64,000 nt of DNA from Escherichia phage vB_EcoM_SP13, in the sequence record OP352608, one strand, 5' to 3'. Both the position numbers and the translations under genes were made by a program. Below are positions 5,654 to 42,525 of the stretch, piece after piece (the stretch's first letter is position 1; every line of letters starts with the position of its first letter). Below the pieces are notes generated by a model. That model worked only from the letters and a program-made list of their open reading frames with translations. It did not search any database and was not told where the DNA came from.

Positions 5654-7963
5654 TTATTTTGCTGATTTCAGCGCGGCTATCTCTGCCTTGAGTTCACCTA
5701 TCTGATCCATGAGTGCAAGAATAGCCTCGTGGTGCAATGCCGCTGCCACTCCGTAAGTGTCGACTGATTTGACATCCTTGACCACGGTCCCATCAGCCAG
5801 TTCCATATCACCTGAAACAGAAACGGCTTCTGGGAAATCAACCTCAACATCTTGAGCCACGAATCCAAAACCTACTTTCGCGCCGTCAGTTTTCAATCGC
5901 CATGACACGCCATTAATCCTTTTCATCTTGGTCAATGGGTCTTGAATCTTGACAATCTCATCCTTGATTCTGACGTCTGAAGAAGTACCCCAACCGCCAG
6001 CGCAAACAGCATTACCTGCTTGCAGGAATTGGAAATACTTGTTGGTGCCTACACCGCCAGCAGTAGTGGTCATTATGGTCACATCGCCATTACGCTCAGA
6101 ATATACCCGACCATACGTTGCTGTGTTGGCACTGTTCTTAAAATCGATGAACGATTGGTTGTTGGTGTTTCCAATGAACGTCGCTTGACCGCCGCGAGTT
6201 ATCAACTGGCCTTTTGCATCAACGTTCCCAGAGCTGGTGATCAAGTTATTTGGCACAAGCAAGTTGCCGTTGTCGACAAAATCGAATGCCTGGCTGGCGG
6301 CAGTCGTCAAATTGGTAACGGTCAATCGCATGTAATAAGCGCCACCGATAACAGCGCGAATGCGCATGCGACCTTCAGCCTCAACAGCAGTCCCCACTCG
6401 ATACTCCGACATGACGCTGCCGCCGTCAGCGGTCGTGCCTGGACCTGGCATTGCCGTATCGCCGTTTATAACAGACCATTGCGTATTCGCCGCTGTGAAT
6501 CCACCGGATGCACGAATCACCCAAACGCCTGAAAAGTTGCGCGGCAATACTTCATCTGTTGCAAGGTTGTTACGACCGTAAGCTGGGCTTGAGTTAGAAG
6601 CTCTTAGCGCAACGCTTCCCAAAGAGTTCGCACCAGAACTTAAAAGCGAAACACCTCTTACATATCGCGGAATGGTGAATCCTTCTCCATTGATGAATGC
6701 GCCGCCAGCACCTGCGACAACCGTTCCTGATGCTGGTTCACTTGCAGGGCCGGACCCGTGGAAGTTGATGTTGCCAGTGATGTTTGGCAGGAAGGATTCC
6801 ATTATCATTCCGTCATTTGACGAGTTGCCGCCATCGCCACGGGCAAAAAGTGCACGAACACTTCCTGTCTGAACGCCGTTACGGTCTGGAACACGGAATG
6901 TTGTTGTTCCGTTGCCTAAAGAATACTTTCCGCGCTTCAGCGGGTCAGCCAACCAATCTGCATCAGCAATAGGCGTAAGCATTTGCGCATAAGCCCAAAG
7001 CTCAGGCCAGTCTGCACGGTTAAGCAATTGTCCGTCGGCAACAACTTCATACGACTGAATATAGGCGCGACTGTCGCGCAGGTGAAAGTCACCAACGCCA
7101 TAGTTCATTACGCCGTTCATGCTTGGGCCAACGGTGCCAGTATTTACTAAGTTCTCAACCCAACGCTTCGTCGCGGCATCATAATCATTGACGGGGTCGC
7201 CAGCCAGTGGTGTTGAGCCTTGTGGACGAATATTCAACCATGCTTGCGCATTGTCTGCTGATCCTGTGCCGCCCATGGAAGTTGGAACGATGCTCTGATC
7301 AGCAACAGGGCCAAATCCAAAGGCATCTTTCATTCCCTGAATAGTCGTTTGACCTGTGCCGCCGTTTGCAATTGGAATTGTGCTTTGTGAACTATAAATT
7401 TGCGCCCAAGGCGACCATGAAGATGTTTCAGCATTGTACCTTCTTTGGTACAAGTTATTTGAGTTGAATGTGGTGTATCTTTGAATGCAACTTTCCAAAG
7501 ATATGGCAGTCTGCAGGACTTCCAATATCCCAGCTTCCAAGGCTACTGGATAGTTGAGGGATGTCTGCGCAGCAGCATTTGAATATTGGTAATATTGCCC
7601 AAACCAAGTTCCAGTCAAAGAGTTCAGATTTATCCCCGACGGCAAAAGTCCAAAATTCCTGACAGTATTGGTCAAAGATGCGGCAGTTGTTCGAATGGAA
7701 AGCATGTCGCCTGCCGCCCATGCGCGCGCTGCAGTTCCTTCCTGTGCACGCTGCACAGTCAGGACGTTCCCAACCACGGCTGTTACAGTGATGATTTCAA
7801 ATTGGAGGCCTGTTGCAGCGTCGACGATTGTCGCCACTACACGCTCGTTTGCACCCAAGGTCGGAAAGCCCGACCCTGAGCGGATTGTGATTGTGGTGTC
7901 TGAAGTCGTCGCTGGCTGAGCGAGCGCGACCTCAAAGTTGTTTTTGAATATTAGCCTTGGCAT
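5654..7963 (-). CDS. tail fibre/tailspike protein with C-terminal self-cleaving intramolecular chaperone domain (peptidase S74-like)
   Basis: N-terminal TITIRSGSGF...VTAVVGNVLTVQRAQEGT fibre-anchor-like segment; Gly/Ser/Thr-rich repetitive body; C-terminal GGWGTSSDVRIKDEI ... FGFVAQDVE ... LKAEIAALK pattern as in endosialidase-type chaperone domains; CGAGGA RBS. Confidence 0.75.
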   Translation of the reverse strand: MPRLIFKNNFEVALAQPATTSDTTITIRSGSGFPTLGANERVVATIVDAATGLQFEIITVTAVVGNVLTVQRAQEGTAARAWAAGDMLSIRTTAASLTNTVRNFGLLPSGINLNSLTGTWFGQYYQYSNAAAQTSLNYPVALEAGILEVLQTAISLESCIQRYTTFNSNNLYQRRYNAETSSWSPWAQIYSSQSTIPIANGGTGQTTIQGMKDAFGFGPVADQSIVPTSMGGTGSADNAQAWLNIRPQGSTPLAGDPVNDYDAATKRWVENLVNTGTVGPSMNGVMNYGVGDFHLRDSRAYIQSYEVVADGQLLNRADWPELWAYAQMLTPIADADWLADPLKRGKYSLGNGTTTFRVPDRNGVQTGSVRALFARGDGGNSSNDGMIMESFLPNITGNINFHGSGPASEPASGTVVAGAGGAFINGEGFTIPRYVRGVSLLSSGANSLGSVALRASNSSPAYGRNNLATDEVLPRNFSGVWVIRASGGFTAANTQWSVINGDTAMPGPGTTADGGSVMSEYRVGTAVEAEGRMRIRAVIGGAYYMRLTVTNLTTAASQAFDFVDNGNLLVPNNLITSSGNVDAKGQLITRGGQATFIGNTNNQSFIDFKNSANTATYGRVYSERNGDVTIMTTTAGGVGTNKYFQFLQAGNAVCAGGWGTSSDVRIKDEIVKIQDPLTKMKRINGVSWRLKTDGAKVGFGFVAQDVEVDFPEAVSVSGDMELADGTVVKDVKSVDTYGVAAALHHEAILALMDQIGELKAEIAALKSAK

Positions 7964-32748: not shown

Positions 32749-35487
32749 ATGCAAAAGTTTGACACAAACCTGTTGCAAAACCTTAAGTGGATGCAGAACA
32801 ATGCGCCAAACATTACATCTTTGGTGCAAAAGAAAAGTGACTGGTATGAAAGATACCAAGATCAGTTTTGGACTGACTGGTACAATAACATTTTTAACAT
32901 TGACACTTGTGATGCAATGGGCATTTATATTTGGTGCGACATTCTTTGCATACCAAGAGACTTTGTGGACTTAAGCAATTATGAGCACAACTGGGCGTTT
33001 GGACCGACGCGCGACAACTTTGAAGGTGCGGACAACATCGGCGGCAACTTCTTTGGTGCTGGCGGGAAGGTTGTAAAGAATATCGAAGAAGCGCGCATAC
33101 TTCTTAAGCTTCGTTATCTGACGCTTACAAGTGATGGCCGCATCGAAAGTATCAATCGCATGCTTAAGTGGATTTTCAACCGTGGAGAGGCTTGGGATTA
33201 CTCTTCATCACGCTACGCATATGTGACCGACAATACTCAAGGCGCAGTGTCTTCGTCTGAATCAACCAATGGCTCATTCCTTCTGTACGACTGGCAAGGG
33301 TCAACTGAGATTCAGCACGATTATAAGCAGATACTTTTAAGCCATGGCAACAACGCCGGACTGACCATCAGCGGAGTATCAGGCACCGTGTCACGGATGG
33401 CGCATCCAGATTGGTACTCATGGGGGAATGGCTCCGGCACAGGTCTTGTCGGCGGCGACACCAGACAGTATGGCGGCCCTGATTACTATGGACAGTTGTG
33501 TGGTGATTACCCAGGCGAGGCCATAGAGAATTTTGCCAACGCAGTAAGGGTAGTCAAGACTGCTTCAAGCGGTGAGCCTGTGTATTCTTTGGCAGATAAT
33601 CCAAGCGCCCAATCCATTGCGCTTCCTTCGCAGGCTGGCGTTAACGTTTGTTATAGCTTCTACATAAAGGTGCTTTCTGAAAATGTCGCTTCTGTTTCGG
33701 TTACAGAGAATAGTGATGCATCTAGTAATGGAAAGTTGTTTGACCCAGTCACTGGGCAGTTCAACTTGGACCCGTATTTGAGCTATTTCATCACAGGCAA
33801 ATTCGATGGAGTAAGAAGGGAATCAAGCCGTGGTGGCATCAAAGCAATCGGCGGCGATTGGTATCGAATCTGGATTGTAGAGCAGACGGCAACCGCTGCG
33901 TCTGGAGTAAGTACCAGCTTTTCAATAGAGTTGAAGGCGACTGCCGCTGGATCAACTCAAACTCGTGAATTGCCTGAAGGGTCTGATGCACTTCTTTTTG
34001 GATACTCGATTTGCGTCTGCGACCCTGTTCAGAATCCAAATGGACCTGAGCCTTATTTTTATGGAACGCAAAACCCTCCTTCTGACGGAACAGCAATACT
34101 GTCTGTAACGGCGGGAACGCTCAACAACATCTCCTGTGCAAACGGACCGCTGACGACAAGAAACGGTGTGGTTGGCGAGTCATTCATGCAACCTGGCTCA
34201 TCACTTGCATACTCTGGCTCAATCGGCGGCTACCCGTACCCAGGGAACGCCACATTGATTGCAGAGACTGACGGCATCAGACGCTCATGGAACGTTAGCA
34301 GGCTTGATGGAGTACCGCCGCCGCCGACCGCTGACTATTACATGGAATACGTCATCGGACCTTATTTCGCCAACAACCTGTCAGACAACTTTAAGACGCT
34401 AGTTGGCGACAGGGATGAAGGATTCTTGCCAGCAAATGCCGGAATACGCTGGCAGCTTTACCAAGAAGTCGCAGACTTATCTGATATTGATTTGACTGTC
34501 AGCAACATAACAGACACGCGAGTAGGATTTGAAACGGAAGGTGTTGCTTGGATTAACACTGACGGTATCATCAGAGTTGGCGGCATTAACGAGTGGCCGC
34601 TGAACAACTTCAACGGTGTGATACGCCAGCTTGAATCTTTGAAAGGTGTAAACCAGGTCATCGACGGCGCGCTTGTCAACGACTATTCAATCTCAAAAGC
34701 ATCAAGAGATGACTTTGGTCGTGAAATCCCACGTGCCGCAATCACTAACTACTGGAGATACACACAGCCCAATGACGGCACATCTTTTGGCAATATCATT
34801 GAGGATGGCGCAAACACGGTCACAGCGACGCCAATCAGCGGTGTACCCAACCAGTTCCCATCATTCAAGCTTTCCGCTACAATAGGGACTGTGCCAGCGT
34901 CCGGTTATGCACGCGCTGTACTTGCTACTAAATACACTGGCACCCTGACTGGTCCTTTATCATTCATTGCGGTAGTCAAAAACAACACGGTTAACGGTCA
35001 AAAACTTTTTGTAACTGTACCGGATGGGATGGGTGGCTATATCCCTAAATTCTACAACATAGGCGCAGGTGATTTGCAACGTATCGAAATTGACCTTGCC
35101 GCTGAGATTGTTGAAGGCGCTACCTGGGATGGATCAACAGGCGGCATCAGCATCGGTTTGATATCAGGGAAAGACTTGCCGACCGAAGTTGGTACGACTC
35201 TTGAACTTGATATTTTAAGCTTGATGCTTGTGTCTGGTAATACGATGAATGCGCTTGCAATTTCAACAAGCGAAGATTTCGCAAAGAAGACTGCGACTTC
35301 TATATACATCAAAAACCCAGGATCACTTGCCACTGGAGTTCAATTGATTGCTTCTAATGGTGATGTTGTAGCAACAGTAAACTTTCCGAGAAGTGCTGCT
35401 GGTGGTTATGTTTCAAGCATGAACATAACTGACTTAACTGGTGATTGGGCATCAACCCTTTTATCAAAAATTAAATACATCGTGTAG
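32749..35487 (+). CDS. tail fibre / baseplate wedge protein
   Basis: 912 aa; Gly/Ser/Thr/Asn-rich; GAGGAA RBS; synteny. Confidence 0.55.
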   Translation: MQKFDTNLLQNLKWMQNNAPNITSLVQKKSDWYERYQDQFWTDWYNNIFNIDTCDAMGIYIWCDILCIPRDFVDLSNYEHNWAFGPTRDNFEGADNIGGNFFGAGGKVVKNIEEARILLKLRYLTLTSDGRIESINRMLKWIFNRGEAWDYSSSRYAYVTDNTQGAVSSSESTNGSFLLYDWQGSTEIQHDYKQILLSHGNNAGLTISGVSGTVSRMAHPDWYSWGNGSGTGLVGGDTRQYGGPDYYGQLCGDYPGEAIENFANAVRVVKTASSGEPVYSLADNPSAQSIALPSQAGVNVCYSFYIKVLSENVASVSVTENSDASSNGKLFDPVTGQFNLDPYLSYFITGKFDGVRRESSRGGIKAIGGDWYRIWIVEQTATAASGVSTSFSIELKATAAGSTQTRELPEGSDALLFGYSICVCDPVQNPNGPEPYFYGTQNPPSDGTAILSVTAGTLNNISCANGPLTTRNGVVGESFMQPGSSLAYSGSIGGYPYPGNATLIAETDGIRRSWNVSRLDGVPPPPTADYYMEYVIGPYFANNLSDNFKTLVGDRDEGFLPANAGIRWQLYQEVADLSDIDLTVSNITDTRVGFETEGVAWINTDGIIRVGGINEWPLNNFNGVIRQLESLKGVNQVIDGALVNDYSISKASRDDFGREIPRAAITNYWRYTQPNDGTSFGNIIEDGANTVTATPISGVPNQFPSFKLSATIGTVPASGYARAVLATKYTGTLTGPLSFIAVVKNNTVNGQKLFVTVPDGMGGYIPKFYNIGAGDLQRIEIDLAAEIVEGATWDGSTGGISIGLISGKDLPTEVGTTLELDILSLMLVSGNTMNALAISTSEDFAKKTATSIYIKNPGSLATGVQLIASNGDVVATVNFPRSAAGGYVSSMNITDLTGDWASTLLSKIKYIV

Positions 35488-35497
35488 AGGAACGGCA

Positions 35498-37282
35498 ATG
35501 CCAACACTTATTAACAGACCTTTCGCGCAAAGCGGTGATGTATCCGTGGTGCCGGATGCAAGTCCAAGCGGTTATGTGAACTTCCAGCGCGGCTACACCC
35601 CTGACTATGCACTTGCGCTGGAAGCCGGAAACGTCGCCGCGAAAGCAGTTGAACGTGAGTCGATGAACTGGTTGCTGAATCTGATCACCGACAACCTTAT
35701 GTTCATCCAGGACCACGGCGCTCAACAGTATTTCTCGTCTGACTTGAAGCCAGATGGATACCCGAAAAATGCCATCGTTGTCAGCAACTCTGGCACCCCT
35801 TCAGCGCCTGAATGGCGCATTTTCCAGAGTGTGGTAGACGGCAACACCAGCGCAGTCCCAGCTAACGGCGAAACGGAATCTTGGCAGGAATTGACGCTGC
35901 CTAGCGAAGCGAGAAAATATATTCCTATGCCTGCTGGCGGCGATGCGCAAAACCCGTATTTTGTTCGCGGACTGATTTCAAACTTTGTGGACTTTGATAA
36001 TATCACGACTTCCACAACTATTGTCATTCAATCTGATGCCGTTGCCGCTCTCTGCTCTAACATCCCGAACGCGGTTGGTGCGACGAAGGTTGCAGGTCGT
36101 CTCCAGGTTTGCGCTTGGCAGGTTGATGCGCAGACTTTCGCCCTGCAACAATACACGTCAATGAACGGATATGTTTTCACCCGCTCTTATACTTCTGGTG
36201 CTTGGAGTGCTTGGATTCAAAATGCAACTGTTCAAGACGTGCAAATCGGCACGCCGAATCTTGCATCAGGTAAAGGCGCACAAGATATAATCCTTACCGT
36301 TCCGGCAGGTTATGCATGGCCGCCGTCAGCAGGTAGTCGCCTGACAATTGTCAATGATGTAACGACTACCGGACCTGTTACCGTGACCATTGGTGCAAAC
36401 AAAGTTGCAGTCCTTGGATTCGACGGCGGCGAGCTGCCAGCAGGGTCCATCGTCGGTCTTCTTCCTTTTACTATTATTTATGACGGCACCGTTTGGCGTC
36501 TTCTTCAAGCATTCGGCGCGGCGCAAATCGGTGTCGATGCTAGTGAGCCGCAACAGTTTGTTACAAAGCGCCAACTCGATGCTTTGGCTGCGAAATTGAT
36601 AACTATGGGTGATGTATTCGAAGTCGGTGAGACTCGATTCTTGACTAATGGCACTAACCCAAATACTAAACTGGGCGCTTATGGACAGGTTTGGACCAGA
36701 TTGCCTGACAACATGGTCATCAGGACATCTGGCACAGCAAGAAACGGCCTTGCCACTGGCGGCGCGGACTCTGTTACTCTTACCGCCGCCATGCTTCCTC
36801 TGCACAATCACAGCGTGAACATAACTACGCGACAGAGCGGTCCATGGTCCAATACCACTGGAGGCGCAGGCAACCATAACCACACAGGCGATACCAGTCA
36901 AAACGGCGCTCACGTGCACGGAATGGATGCTGCTGGTAATCATCATCACGACAGTGGCTGGGGTGAGGCTTATGCAGACCAGGCTAGATACGGGGTGTAT
37001 GATGGCACGCACAATAACCTTGGAAGTGCAAGGTCTGATTATGACAACTACAAATACAACACCTCGACTAACGGTAGCCACGTCCACAATATTCAATCTT
37101 CTGGGTCACACACCCATGGGTTGAATATAAATTTCGCTGGCAATCACAGCCATAGCTATACCCTTCCCGCTCACACTCACGATGTGGTCGGTAACACTGG
37201 CAATGCAGGGCAGTCCGTCCCAACGGCTGTTTCAACTCTGCCGCGATATGTCGTCTTGAACGGCTGGTACAGAAGCGCATAA
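35498..37282 (+). CDS. tail fibre protein with His-x-His repeat-rich C-terminal tip
   Basis: ORF trimmed to MPTLINRP after GAGGAACGG; C-terminal 150 aa carry many HNH / HxH triplets, reminiscent of metal-binding HxH tips of T4-type fibres. Confidence 0.7.
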   Translation: MPTLINRPFAQSGDVSVVPDASPSGYVNFQRGYTPDYALALEAGNVAAKAVERESMNWLLNLITDNLMFIQDHGAQQYFSSDLKPDGYPKNAIVVSNSGTPSAPEWRIFQSVVDGNTSAVPANGETESWQELTLPSEARKYIPMPAGGDAQNPYFVRGLISNFVDFDNITTSTTIVIQSDAVAALCSNIPNAVGATKVAGRLQVCAWQVDAQTFALQQYTSMNGYVFTRSYTSGAWSAWIQNATVQDVQIGTPNLASGKGAQDIILTVPAGYAWPPSAGSRLTIVNDVTTTGPVTVTIGANKVAVLGFDGGELPAGSIVGLLPFTIIYDGTVWRLLQAFGAAQIGVDASEPQQFVTKRQLDALAAKLITMGDVFEVGETRFLTNGTNPNTKLGAYGQVWTRLPDNMVIRTSGTARNGLATGGADSVTLTAAMLPLHNHSVNITTRQSGPWSNTTGGAGNHNHTGDTSQNGAHVHGMDAAGNHHHDSGWGEAYADQARYGVYDGTHNNLGSARSDYDNYKYNTSTNGSHVHNIQSSGSHTHGLNINFAGNHSHSYTLPAHTHDVVGNTGNAGQSVPTAVSTLPRYVVLNGWYRSA

Positions 37283-38187: not shown

Positions 38188-38730
38188 TCAACGCACTTCC
38201 TGTGTCTTAACATTACCTGAAGCATCTCTTAAGGGCAGTGGATAGTAGGCCATTTGGTAGTCTGATACGCCTTCAACATGATAAAACACGATTACGTCTT
38301 TGCTGTTGATGAGCATGTTAACGACATCTGATTTATCTTCTGGAGTGAGTATGAGTGCGCCGCCTGTCCTGCTGTCTACTGCAACAGGGTATGTCTTATC
38401 GACAAGGCCGCTGTCCAATGTATTATACCTGACAACGATTTCAGGGGCATCAACTTTTGCAATTGACATTCCGAACACAAACGACACGACTTGGCGACCG
38501 CGATCATTCATTACGCACATCTTTTCCTTATCAAACCTTTCCTTTATCACATCATATTTGTTCCAACAAAATTCGAACGATTGGCCGTTGTTAAAATATC
38601 TCGTTAATACTTTTGCATTGCTGTTTGGCGGCGTAAACATACTTTCAGCCGCTGCACTTTTGGTGAAGAACAAAACTGTCAGCATAGCCATGATGATGAT
38701 CAAAACAATCTTTAAGTTTTTCGATTTCAT
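38188..38730 (-). CDS. secreted/periplasmic protein with N-terminal signal peptide
   Basis: AAAGGTG RBS; MKSKNLKIVLIIIMAMLTVLFFTKSAAAE signal-peptide-like N-terminus. Confidence 0.6.
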   Translation of the reverse strand: MKSKNLKIVLIIIMAMLTVLFFTKSAAAESMFTPPNSNAKVLTRYFNNGQSFEFCWNKYDVIKERFDKEKMCVMNDRGRQVVSFVFGMSIAKVDAPEIVVRYNTLDSGLVDKTYPVAVDSRTGGALILTPEDKSDVVNMLINSKDVIVFYHVEGVSDYQMAYYPLPLRDASGNVKTQEVR

Positions 38731-41967: not shown

Positions 41968-42525
41968 TTACTTTTTGCTTTTAGGCAAGGTTATTTTAGC
42001 TTCTTTGTATTCAAAAACGCTAATATCTTCACTAACTGGATTGCCTGCTTCCAGCTGTTCTTTTACAAATGACTTCAGTGTAGCAGAATGAACGCCTTGT
42101 TTCAATGTGGCTTCAACGCCATCTTCACGCAGCGCGGCAACAATCTCTTGCGCCTGTTCGATTTCTTCGCGACCGAACTCAGCCGTGACGCTGGACTTGA
42201 TCAAGCCGCCGTAACCGTTGTTGACAAGCCAATCGAAAACTTTTAATTCGTTTTCTTTCTTGATTGAAGCATTCACCTTGGACTCGACCTTGATTTTGGT
42301 CTTGTCCTCAAGCTTGATTTCAGACACACCAAGCTCATCCATTACGCCAGGAAGCAAAACAGTTTTGATTTCACTGATGCGCTGCTTTTGCATATCAGCT
42401 TCATCTTCAAGCTCTGTCAAAGCTTCTTGACGTTCTGCAAGTTCAGATACTAAGCGCGCAAGGCGCTCTTGAATGCTCTCAGGAGCGACCTGCGGCAAAT
42501 CATCTTCCCAATTAATATTGCTCAT
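41968..42525 (-). CDS. hypothetical acidic coiled-coil protein
   Basis: ORF in the replication module. Confidence 0.55.
   Translation of the reverse strand: MSNINWEDDLPQVAPESIQERLARLVSELAERQEALTELEDEADMQKQRISEIKTVLLPGVMDELGVSEIKLEDKTKIKVESKVNASIKKENELKVFDWLVNNGYGGLIKSSVTAEFGREEIEQAQEIVAALREDGVEATLKQGVHSATLKSFVKEQLEAGNPVSEDISVFEYKEAKITLPKSKK

What the first reader, a model, noticed from the sequence alone, without database searches (positions are those of the whole stretch)
36780..37200. Histidine-triplet-rich tip of the distal tail fibre
The last 150 residues contain many H-x-H motifs (LPLHNHSVNI, GNHNHTGD, GAHVHGMD, GNHHHDSG, GSHVHNIQ, GSHTHGLN, GNHSHSYT, AHTHDVV). Regularly spaced HxH motifs coordinate metal ions in the receptor-binding tips of T4-type long and short tail fibres, so this region is the probable receptor-binding tip and a likely host-range determinant.
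Basis: partly seen in the sequence, partly recalled or inferred. Interest (0 to 1): 0.4.

Follow-up and report, generated by a model that had tools for sequence, protein, structure and literature searches.

The report
Metal-binding needle tip of conserved tail fibre
The histidine pairs are real and mark a T4-gp37-like, probably metal-stapled needle at the end of a phage tail fibre, but this has already been described for near-identical phages, and this fibre is the conserved one, not the main host-range determinant.

Summary
The window is a Wifcevirus myophage, 100% identical to Escherichia phage F13 over this gene. All eight HxH motifs exist exactly as quoted (aa 436-561 of a 594-aa protein, nt 36803-37180). 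They are far more frequent than chance and are invariant in 19 orthologues. A family profile matches the T4 gp37 needle (PDB 2XGF, E=2e-20) and the gp10-type collar.

The motifs fall into two groups of four around a 43-residue His-poor, aromatic-rich insert (aa 485-527). That is the collar-needle-head layout, so the histidines are most likely structural metal ligands. The insert is the likely receptor-contacting head.

First, this is not a T4-type "distal" half-fibre. Its N-terminus is the baseplate-binding domain of Pbunavirus gp47, and it sits next to a gp46-like wedge gene. Second, it is the conserved fibre of the genus (C-terminus at least 90.8% identical on O157, O16 and Shigella hosts). 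A second fibre (5654-7963, minus strand) is the variable one.

Humolli et al. 2025 already described the Bas99 orthologue's gp37-like tip with HxH motifs. This analysis adds that the head is the local hot spot of variation and is exchanged as a cassette.

The parts
35498..37282 (+). Complete tail-fibre gene (594 aa plus stop). It equals F13_0068 and is the orthologue of Bas99_0031 and Bas100_0031. This is the 'conserved' fibre of Wifcevirus.
   Evidence: phrog_5717 'tail protein' E=1.7e-174. SD GAGGAA lies upstream of the ATG.
35498..36613 (+). N-terminal baseplate-binding domain and shaft (aa 1-372), Pbunavirus gp47-like.
   Evidence: phmmer versus PDB 9b45 chain 2, gp47 tail fiber: E=9.1e-32, query 2-372 to chain 4-368. 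Only 6% of sites vary among 19 orthologues.
36614..36802 (+). N-terminal half of the collar domain (aa 373-435; gp10 C-terminal-domain-like). It ends in the ...TLTAAMLP motif that leads into the first HxH.
36803..36949 (+). Descending needle strand with four HxH motifs (H436/438, H460/462, H472/474, H482/484).
   Evidence: Three of them align to gp37 H883/885, H915/917 and H929/931. The histidines are invariant in 19 orthologues.
36950..37078 (+). His-poor, Trp/Tyr-rich insert (aa 485-527, DSGWGEAYADQARYGVYDGTHNNLGSARSDYDNYKYNTSTNGS). This is the predicted head domain, the turning point of the chain and the candidate receptor-contact surface. It is also the variation hot spot.
   Evidence: 15 of 43 sites vary, against 44 of 551 elsewhere (Fisher p=2.8e-6). 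dN is 0.10 against 0.009 in the N-terminus. F13 versus Bas100 has 36 mismatches in nt 36929-37077. The same head motif occurs in other fibre scaffolds.
37079..37180 (+). Ascending needle strand with four HxH motifs (H528/530, H538/540, H550/552, H559/561).
   Evidence: Three of them align to gp37 H980/982, H989/991 and H998/1000. The histidines are invariant.
37181..37279 (+). C-terminal segment that returns to the collar and completes it (aa 562-594, ...STLPRYVVLNGWYRSA).
   Evidence: W590 and R592 are invariant in the family alignment (W223 and R225 in segment numbering). The profile aligns this tail to the last strand of gp10 (...IQPYITVYRWIRI). AF2 pLDDT is 75-93.
32749..35487 (+). Upstream baseplate wedge/triplex protein (912 aa, DUF2612), the probable attachment site of this fibre.
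   Evidence: PF11041 E=3.8e-16. Pa193 gp46 'baseplate wedge 2' (9b45) E=2e-41 and E217 triplex gp45 E=7e-41. The gp46 loop binds gp47 in Pa193 (PMC11456595).
5654..7963 (-). Second, variable tail fibre of the same phage (769 aa, orthologue of Bas99_0109). This is the 'T-shaped' fibre with a C-terminal intramolecular chaperone and is the better host-range candidate.
   Evidence: phrog_6921 tail fibre E=9.5e-206. Peptidase_S74 domain at aa 662-714. Only nt 1-~1100 are conserved across the genus. Described in PMC11990801.
37291..37935 (+). Endolysin immediately downstream. It is context only: no gp38-like adhesin or chaperone gene follows the fibre.
   Evidence: PF00182 Glyco_hydro_19 E=2.4e-7. 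phrog_181 endolysin E=1.9e-69.

Best explanation
The region is the C-terminal 'collar-needle-head' module of the conserved, baseplate-attached tail fibre of a Wifcevirus myophage (phage F13). The chain leaves a gp10-like collar domain and runs down a long, thin needle carrying four HxH motifs. It turns in a 43-residue aromatic-rich head (aa 485-527) and runs back up with four more HxH motifs. It then finishes by adding the last strand to the collar.

In the homotrimer, each HxH level would contribute six imidazoles to one octahedral metal site. That gives up to eight ions, Fe2+ by analogy with T4 gp37, stacked along the needle axis. The ions would staple the six intertwined strands into a rigid rod. 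On this reading the histidines are structural ligands, and receptor contact is made by the head.

The whole module is nearly invariant across phages that infect hosts with different O-antigens, while a second fibre is hypervariable. This fibre therefore most likely recognises a conserved surface structure, or transmits a conserved triggering signal, after the variable fibre has dealt with the O-antigen.

Shown here: the motifs, their invariance, the homology to the gp37 needle and the gp10 collar, the split collar, the N-terminal gp47 homology, and the conservation contrast between the two fibres. Inferred: trimer geometry, metal occupancy and identity, the head as receptor contact, and the order in which the two fibres act.
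For: Motifs and statistics. Invariance of all 16 His in 19 orthologues. Invariance in orthologues 51-55% identical.

Homology: the profile of 13 homologues hits T4 gp37 tip 2XGF at E=2e-20 over the needle, and gp10 C-domain 2FKK at E=1e-4 on both collar halves. The pairwise match to gp37 785-1026 has E=7e-5 at 31% identity. An HMM-guided alignment pairs six of gp37's seven HxH motifs with motifs here. Homologues carry Pfam Gp10_C, whose match spans from before the HxH block to the C-terminus, so the needle is an insertion in the collar.

Layout: across 123 family members the HxH motifs split near-symmetrically around the largest gap (5+4, 6+5, 4+4, 3+3, 2+2), as a down-and-back hairpin requires. 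The AF2 monomer folds the N- and C-terminal pieces of the module with pLDDT 83-93 and leaves the needle below 50, as expected for a strand-swapped trimer.

Literature: Felixounavirus fibres, which are 27-33% identical homologues, were seen by cryo-EM to have exactly this collar/HxH-needle/head tip, with the chain doubling back (PMC12609058). An AlphaFold-Multimer model of the Bas99 orthologue has an elongated gp37-like tip with HxH motifs (PMC11990801).

Attachment and conservation: N-terminus equals Pa193 gp47, and the upstream gene equals gp46. Conservation compared with the variable second fibre.
Against: The F13 protein itself has no Pfam hit, even at E<=10, and no direct phmmer hit of the C-terminus to any PDB chain. 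The link to gp37 and gp10 therefore rests on a family profile whose score carries a high compositional bias (32 bits).

The head is the most variable part of the protein, with two or three old alleles exchanged by recombination. That leaves room for a specificity role, which the 'conserved receptor' reading plays down.
Confidence: 0.75

Rival explanations
1. One reading: this tip is the phage's main receptor-binding site and the determinant of host range. Differences in it would decide which strains are infected.
For: It is a gp37-like tip, and in T4 the corresponding head contacts the receptor (as cited in PMC12609058). The head insert is the variation hot spot of the protein: 35% of its sites vary against 8% elsewhere, p=2.8e-6. 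Head alleles are shuffled between lineages. F13 and Bas100 are 98.4% identical in the N-terminal part but 75% identical in the head.
Against: The module is at least 90.8% identical in all Wifcevirus records, whether the phage was isolated on O157:H7, K-12 with O16, or Shigella flexneri. Both head alleles occur on O157 phages and on O16-dependent phages (with the hosts given). dN/dS in the head is 0.095, which indicates purifying selection. The other fibre loses all detectable nt similarity over its C-terminal half between isolates. Humolli et al. reach the same conclusion.
Confidence: 0.15
2. A purely mechanical fibre, as suggested by Humolli et al. The gp37-like tip has no specific ligand and acts only as a rigid strut or trigger lever during baseplate rearrangement.
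For: Conservation is high across the genus. The authors' suggestion is in PMC11990801.
Against: A strut with no ligand gives no reason for the head alone to carry 12-fold higher dN than the N-terminus, to exist as deep alleles (dS 1.06 against 0.39), or to be exchanged as a cassette. It also gives no reason for the same head motif to be grafted onto unrelated fibre scaffolds. Homologous tips in T4 and Felixounavirus are treated as receptor-binding.
Confidence: 0.15
3. The HxH array is not a structural metal core. It might be surface-exposed histidines acting as a pH or metal sensor. It might be a 'Ferrojan horse' that displays iron to hijack siderophore receptors. Or it might be a compositional accident.
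For: Metal binding was not measured, and no trimer model was made here. Iron-bait ideas for HxH fibres exist in the literature (PMC11705849, listed but not read).
Against: Chance is excluded by the shuffles and by complete invariance. [quoted passage not shown] The symmetric n+n layout across the family fits a paired-strand core, not a surface patch.
Confidence: 0.04

Closest known systems
Conserved tail fibre of Wifcevirus phages (called 'Gp32 of ManiWeber/Bas99' in Humolli et al. 2025, PLoS Biol, PMC11990801; locus tag Bas99_0031 in the GenBank record)
   Same: It is the orthologue. The gene sits in the same position, between the DUF2612 wedge gene and the endolysin. The C-terminal 227 aa are 93.4% identical. 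The paper describes an AlphaFold-Multimer model with an elongated T4-gp37-like tip and conserved HxH motifs, high conservation across the genus, and a proposed non-specificity role.
   Different: The F13 copy is annotated only as 'hypothetical protein'. F13 carries head allele A, while Bas99 carries the A' variant and Bas98, Bas100 and Bas101 carry allele B. The paper's gene number (32) differs by one from the deposited locus tag (0031). Orthology is therefore inferred from it being the only fibre gene in the tail/baseplate gene cluster.
T4 gp37 long-tail-fibre receptor-binding tip (PDB 2XGF; Bartual et al. 2010)
   Same: It has the same collar, HxH needle and small head, with the chain doubling back. 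The profile match is E=2e-20. Six HxH motifs align one to one. gp37 has seven HxH motifs arranged 3+4, and they coordinate Fe along the needle.
   Different: F13 has eight motifs arranged 4+4 and an unrelated head sequence. Pairwise identity is only 31% over 117 aligned columns. gp37 is the distal half of a four-protein fibre and needs gp38/gp57A. F13's protein is a complete fibre with its own baseplate-binding N-terminus, and no adjacent chaperone gene is present.
Felixounavirus long and short tail fibres (Bas63 gp27/gp26, cryo-EM, PMC12609058; Sf14 gp53)
   Same: [quoted passage not shown]
   Different: They have a different N-terminal shaft and baseplate adaptor, different head sequences and a different genus. 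In F13 only one of the two fibres has this tip.
Pbunavirus tail fibre gp47 (Pseudomonas phage Pa193, PDB 9b45; PMC11456595)
   Same: The N-terminal ~370 residues are homologous (E=9e-32), and the neighbouring gp46-like wedge gene is homologous too (E=2e-41). The mode of attachment to the baseplate triplex is presumably the same.
   Different: gp47 is 962 aa with a different C-terminal part. No significant match was found beyond residue ~372, and no HxH needle was matched.
T4 gp10 C-terminal domain / Pfam Gp10_C (PF21939), and the phage tail Collar domain (PF07484)
   Same: The two halves of the F13 collar align to the beginning and end of the gp10 C-domain. Family members are assigned PF21939 or PF07484.
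   Different: gp10 has no HxH needle inserted. F13 itself scores below Pfam thresholds.

Membership tests
T4 gp37-type receptor-binding tip (collar-needle-head) | Sequence homology to the gp37 needle region | tested here: met
   The profile of F13 plus 12 homologues matches 2XGF at E=2e-20, profile positions 102-248 to chain 90-238. Pairwise BLASTP gives E=7e-5 at 31% identity. Caveat: the score carries a high compositional bias.
T4 gp37-type receptor-binding tip (collar-needle-head) | Several HxH motifs on both a descending and an ascending strand, flanking a small head insert | tested here: met
   There are 4+4 motifs around a 43-aa His-poor insert. gp37 has 3+4. The symmetric split is general in the family.
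T4 gp37-type receptor-binding tip (collar-needle-head) | A collar domain formed from sequence before and after the needle | tested here: met
T4 gp37-type receptor-binding tip (collar-needle-head) | A homotrimeric six-stranded needle with axial His6 octahedral metal (Fe2+) sites | not testable with these tools
   Only monomer prediction is available, and the needle has pLDDT below 50. A published AF-Multimer model of the orthologue is consistent. Metal content needs experiment.
T4 gp37-type receptor-binding tip (collar-needle-head) | The head domain contacts the host receptor | not testable with these tools
   Only indirect evidence exists: the head is the hot spot of variation and is exchanged as a cassette.
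T4-type long tail fibre, distal half-fibre (gp37 as partner of gp34/35/36, assembled with gp38/gp57A) | The protein is the distal segment of a multi-protein fibre, joined through hinge proteins | tested here: not met
   The N-terminus is a baseplate-binding domain homologous to Pa193 gp47 residues 4-368. The flanking genes are a gp46-like wedge and an endolysin. The annotated neighbourhood contains no proximal-fibre or hinge genes.
T4 gp12-type short tail fibre | Homology to the gp12 receptor-binding domain, with a single Zn-binding HxH | tested here: not met
   No gp12 chain was recovered at E<=10, with either the single sequence or the profile. There are eight HxH motifs, not one. According to PMC11990801, the gp12-like RBD of this phage group is on the other (T-shaped) fibre.
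Pbunavirus/Wifcevirus baseplate-attached fibre (gp47-like) | An N-terminal gp47-like domain, with an adjacent gp46-like wedge subunit | tested here: met
   E=9.1e-32 to 9b45 gp47. E=2e-41 to 9b45 gp46 for the upstream ORF.
Pfam Phage_fiber_2 (PF03406) repeat proteins | A match to the 42-residue repeat model | tested here: not met
   F13 has no Pfam hit. In homologues P0001 and P0007 the PF03406 repeats lie upstream of the collar, not in the HxH block.

The most novel reading that the evidence does not exclude
The 43-residue head (aa 485-527) may be an independently mobile receptor-binding cassette. Two or three old alleles circulate within Wifcevirus by recombination, with breakpoints at the collar start (~nt 36589) and around the head (nt 36929-37077). 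The same rare head type has only 8 cluster representatives among 1.84 billion. It is grafted onto unrelated fibre scaffolds with anywhere from no HxH rungs up to 4+4. If so, the 'conserved' fibre would still tune host specificity, for example by discriminating LPS-core or other conserved-glycan variants. The HxH needle would then be a length-adjustable stalk.
Probability: 0.3. Interest if true: 0.45.

Novelty: already known. Interest (0 to 1): 0.2.

Why it matters
The practical value is in annotation and engineering. F13_0068 and many orthologues are still labelled 'hypothetical protein', and they can now be labelled as the conserved gp37-like-tipped tail fibre. Anyone trying to retarget Wifcevirus phages should start with the other fibre (5654-7963, minus strand). 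If a conserved secondary receptor is the target, the head cassette at aa 485-527 is the place to work, not the histidines. The histidines should be left intact because they probably hold the needle together. The finding does not open a new biological question. The only mildly new point is the modular exchange of the head inside an otherwise conserved fibre.

Tried and rejected
- Direct Pfam scans of the whole protein and of two C-terminal fragments, up to E=10, gave nothing.
- A direct phmmer search of the C-terminus against PDB returned only a His-tag artefact (5ufy, E=0.77), which was rejected.
- An AF2 monomer model of aa 368-594 with a 67-sequence alignment was confident only for the collar. 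The needle and head had pLDDT below 50, so the model says nothing about His stacking.
- I prepared linker-joined pseudo-trimer sequences but did not submit them.
- The T4 gp37 structure paper (PMC2996694) is not held in the library. Statements about Fe in gp37 therefore rest on its description in PMC12609058 and on general knowledge.
- Positive selection in the head was tested and rejected: dN/dS is 0.095.
- A recent DNA duplication as the origin of the repeats was rejected: TRF finds nothing.
- The genomic context of the Xenorhabdus protein that shares the head showed an orphan gene in an island, which was uninformative.

Full report
**Identity of the window and the gene.** The finding lies in the ORF at 35498-37282 (+), which encodes 594 aa. 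The ATG at 35498 follows a GAGGAA Shine-Dalgarno sequence, 10 nt after the stop codon of the upstream gene. Megablast shows the gene is 100% identical to Escherichia phage F13 (OP745617, genus Wifcevirus). It is 87.5-96.4% identical, over its full length, in all 27 other matching records, all of them Wifcevirus-type E. coli/Shigella myophages. In F13 the gene is annotated 'hypothetical protein'. In the BASEL phages Bas98-101 it is annotated 'tail protein'. In all of them it sits between a baseplate wedge gene and the endolysin.

**Check of the observation.** The first histidines are at aa 436, 460, 472, 482, 528, 538, 550 and 559, spanning nt 36803-37180. Eighteen of the protein's 19 histidines lie in the last 170 residues. 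With the composition of the 141-aa segment held fixed, 18 of 100,000 shuffles reach eight HxH. Shuffling the whole protein never gives more than five. There is no nucleotide-level tandem repeat. All 16 motif histidines are invariant in 19 Wifcevirus orthologues. They are also invariant in metagenomic orthologues that are only 51-55% identical overall.

**What the region is.**
- The F13 sequence alone gives no Pfam hit. PHROGs places it among tail, tail-collar and tail-fibre families.
- Database homologues of the last 227 aa are 31-40% identical. They include fibres of Pantoea phage AAM37, Xanthomonas phage DIBBI and a Xenorhabdus fibre, and they carry Pfam Gp10_C (PF21939) or Collar (PF07484). 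In them the Gp10_C match starts before the HxH block and ends at the C-terminus.
- A profile of these sequences matches the crystal structure of the T4 gp37 receptor-binding tip (2XGF) at E=2e-20 over the needle. It matches the gp10 C-terminal domain (2FKK) at E=1e-4 on both collar halves.
- Pairwise, F13 against gp37 785-1026 gives E=7e-5.
- In an HMM-guided alignment, gp37's seven HxH motifs are at 883, 915, 929 | 966, 980, 989, 998. Six of them pair with F13 motifs 436, 460, 472 | 528, 538, 559.
- The F13 motifs form two groups of four, separated by a 43-residue His-poor, Trp/Tyr-rich insert (aa 485-527).
- Across 123 family members the HxH motifs split almost symmetrically around the largest gap (5+4, 6+5, 4+4, 3+3, 2+2). 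A down-and-back needle requires exactly this.
- Cryo-EM of the Felixounavirus Bas63 shows this architecture directly. Its fibres belong to the group that tblastn finds at 27-33% identity to the F13 module. The structure shows a collar, an HxH needle and a small head, with the chain doubling back at the head (PMC12609058).

**Structure prediction.** My AF2 monomer model was confident for the two collar pieces (pLDDT 83-93) and not for the needle and head (below 50). That is expected for a strand-swapped trimer, but it leaves His stacking unshown here. Fold searches ranked gp10, gp11 and gp37 among the top hits at non-significant scores.

- This is not a T4-type distal half-fibre. Residues 2-372 match the baseplate-attached N-terminus of Pseudomonas phage Pa193 gp47 (9b45, E=9e-32). 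The upstream 912-aa DUF2612 protein matches Pa193 gp46 (E=2e-41), whose loop holds gp47 on the baseplate (PMC11456595). The protein is therefore a complete fibre: a gp47-like base carrying a gp37-like tip.
- It is not the obvious host-range determinant. Its C-terminal 227 aa are at least 90.8% identical in phages isolated on O157:H7, K-12 with O16, and Shigella flexneri (hosts).
- The phage has a second fibre at 5654-7963 (minus strand). It is 769 aa with a Peptidase_S74 intramolecular chaperone domain. Only its N-terminal ~48% is conserved across the genus.

**Prior description.** Humolli et al. 2025 (PMC11990801) already describe both fibres.
[quoted passage not shown] - The T-shaped fibre carries variable gp12-like and T5-like receptor-binding domains.
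- All four BASEL Wifcevirus isolates depend on O16 O-antigen.

The core of the finding is therefore already known for a 93%-identical orthologue.

**What this analysis adds.**
- Within the otherwise conserved fibre, variation is concentrated in the predicted head. Fifteen of its 43 sites vary, against 44 of 551 elsewhere (Fisher p=2.8e-6).
- dN in the head is 0.10, against 0.009 in the N-terminus. dS is also raised (1.06 against 0.39) and dN/dS is 0.095. This points to old alleles under purifying selection, not to ongoing positive selection.
- Two main head alleles occur on both sides of the genus's main split and on phages of different hosts. Allele A is ...GWGEAYADQ...LGSAR-SDY... and allele B is ...SWGEANTND...FGSRKGGDW.... 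There is also an A' variant.
- F13 and Bas100 differ at 4 positions in the first 1080 nt. They differ at about 4-5 positions per 60 nt from nt 36589, which is the start of the collar. They differ at 36 positions within nt 36929-37077. This is a nested mosaic whose breakpoints coincide with domain boundaries.
- The head type is rare. A head-only search found 8 cluster representatives among 1.84 billion.
- The same head appears on other scaffolds. These include a Xenorhabdus fibre (73% identical in the head, 37-40% over the whole module), fibres with only 2+2 HxH, and a classic Collar-type protein with essentially no needle.
- These points fit the head being the functional ligand-binding unit and the HxH needle being a stalk of adjustable length. 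They argue mildly against a purely mechanical role.

**Mechanism proposed.** In the trimer, each HxH level supplies six histidines to one axial metal ion. That gives up to eight ions, Fe2+ by analogy with gp37, which rigidify the six-stranded needle. The head at the far end binds a conserved surface structure after the variable T-shaped fibre has engaged the O-antigen. Binding is then relayed through the gp47-like base to the gp46-like wedge. The trimer geometry, the metal, the ligand and the order of events are all inferences.

**Verdict.** The feature is an ordinary member of a known fibre-tip family and has already been described for its orthologue. Interest is low, and the only modest new angle is the head cassette.

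Noticed in passing
window 5654-7963 (-): This is the second tail fibre of the phage (769 aa), with a Peptidase_S74 intramolecular chaperone domain at aa 662-714. Only its N-terminal ~1100 nt are conserved across Wifcevirus. One segment (query nt 778-1191) matches a fibre of the unrelated 112-kb phage KookSpook at 82% identity, which suggests horizontal exchange of receptor-binding modules.
   Followed up: partly
window 36929-37077 (head) and ~36589 (collar start): Comparison of F13 with Bas100 shows a nested mosaic pattern. The two are nearly identical upstream of 36589, about 7% diverged across the collar and needle, and about 25% diverged in the head. Head alleles are distributed incongruently with the rest of the gene across 19 phages.
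   Followed up: yes
L022 6001-6933 (Xenorhabdus bovienii GCA_051062955.1): A 310-aa tail-fibre protein carries a head 73% identical to F13's, but with only 2+2 HxH. It sits alone in a genomic island, next to an AlpA fragment, a transposase and DndB, with no other phage tail genes within 6 kb. It looks like an orphan remnant.
   Followed up: partly
P0129 (345 aa, metagenomic): This is a classic MdpB/Collar-type protein in which the same head motif (GWGEVF...WRYGVTD...DHDNYLYNTS) is inserted with essentially no HxH needle, only 'KHHH'. It shows that head and needle are separable modules.
   Followed up: no
window 32749-35487 (+): In this 912-aa DUF2612 protein, only residues 4-185 match the ~500-aa Pbunavirus wedge/triplex subunit (gp46/gp45). 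The remaining ~700 residues have no PDB or Pfam match and could be an additional baseplate-displayed domain.
   Followed up: no
window 38188-38730 (-): This 180-aa ORF has an N-terminal signal-peptide-like hydrophobic segment (MKSKNLKIVLIIIMAMLTVLFFTKSAAAE). It has no PHROG match and lies just downstream of the endolysin on the opposite strand. Its function is unknown.
   Followed up: no
window coordinates versus the F13 record: Window position 35441 corresponds to F13 record position 42295. A 64,000-nt window starting at that offset would run past the end of the 68,786-nt linear record. The window may therefore come from a differently permuted assembly or from a closely related genome. This was not checked outside the two fibre genes.
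   Followed up: no
PMC11990801 versus GenBank PQ850618: The paper's gene numbers for Bas99 (Gp32 for the conserved fibre, Gp114 for the T-shaped fibre) do not match the deposited locus tags (Bas99_0031 and Bas99_0109). Readers mapping the paper onto the record need to allow for this.
   Followed up: yes
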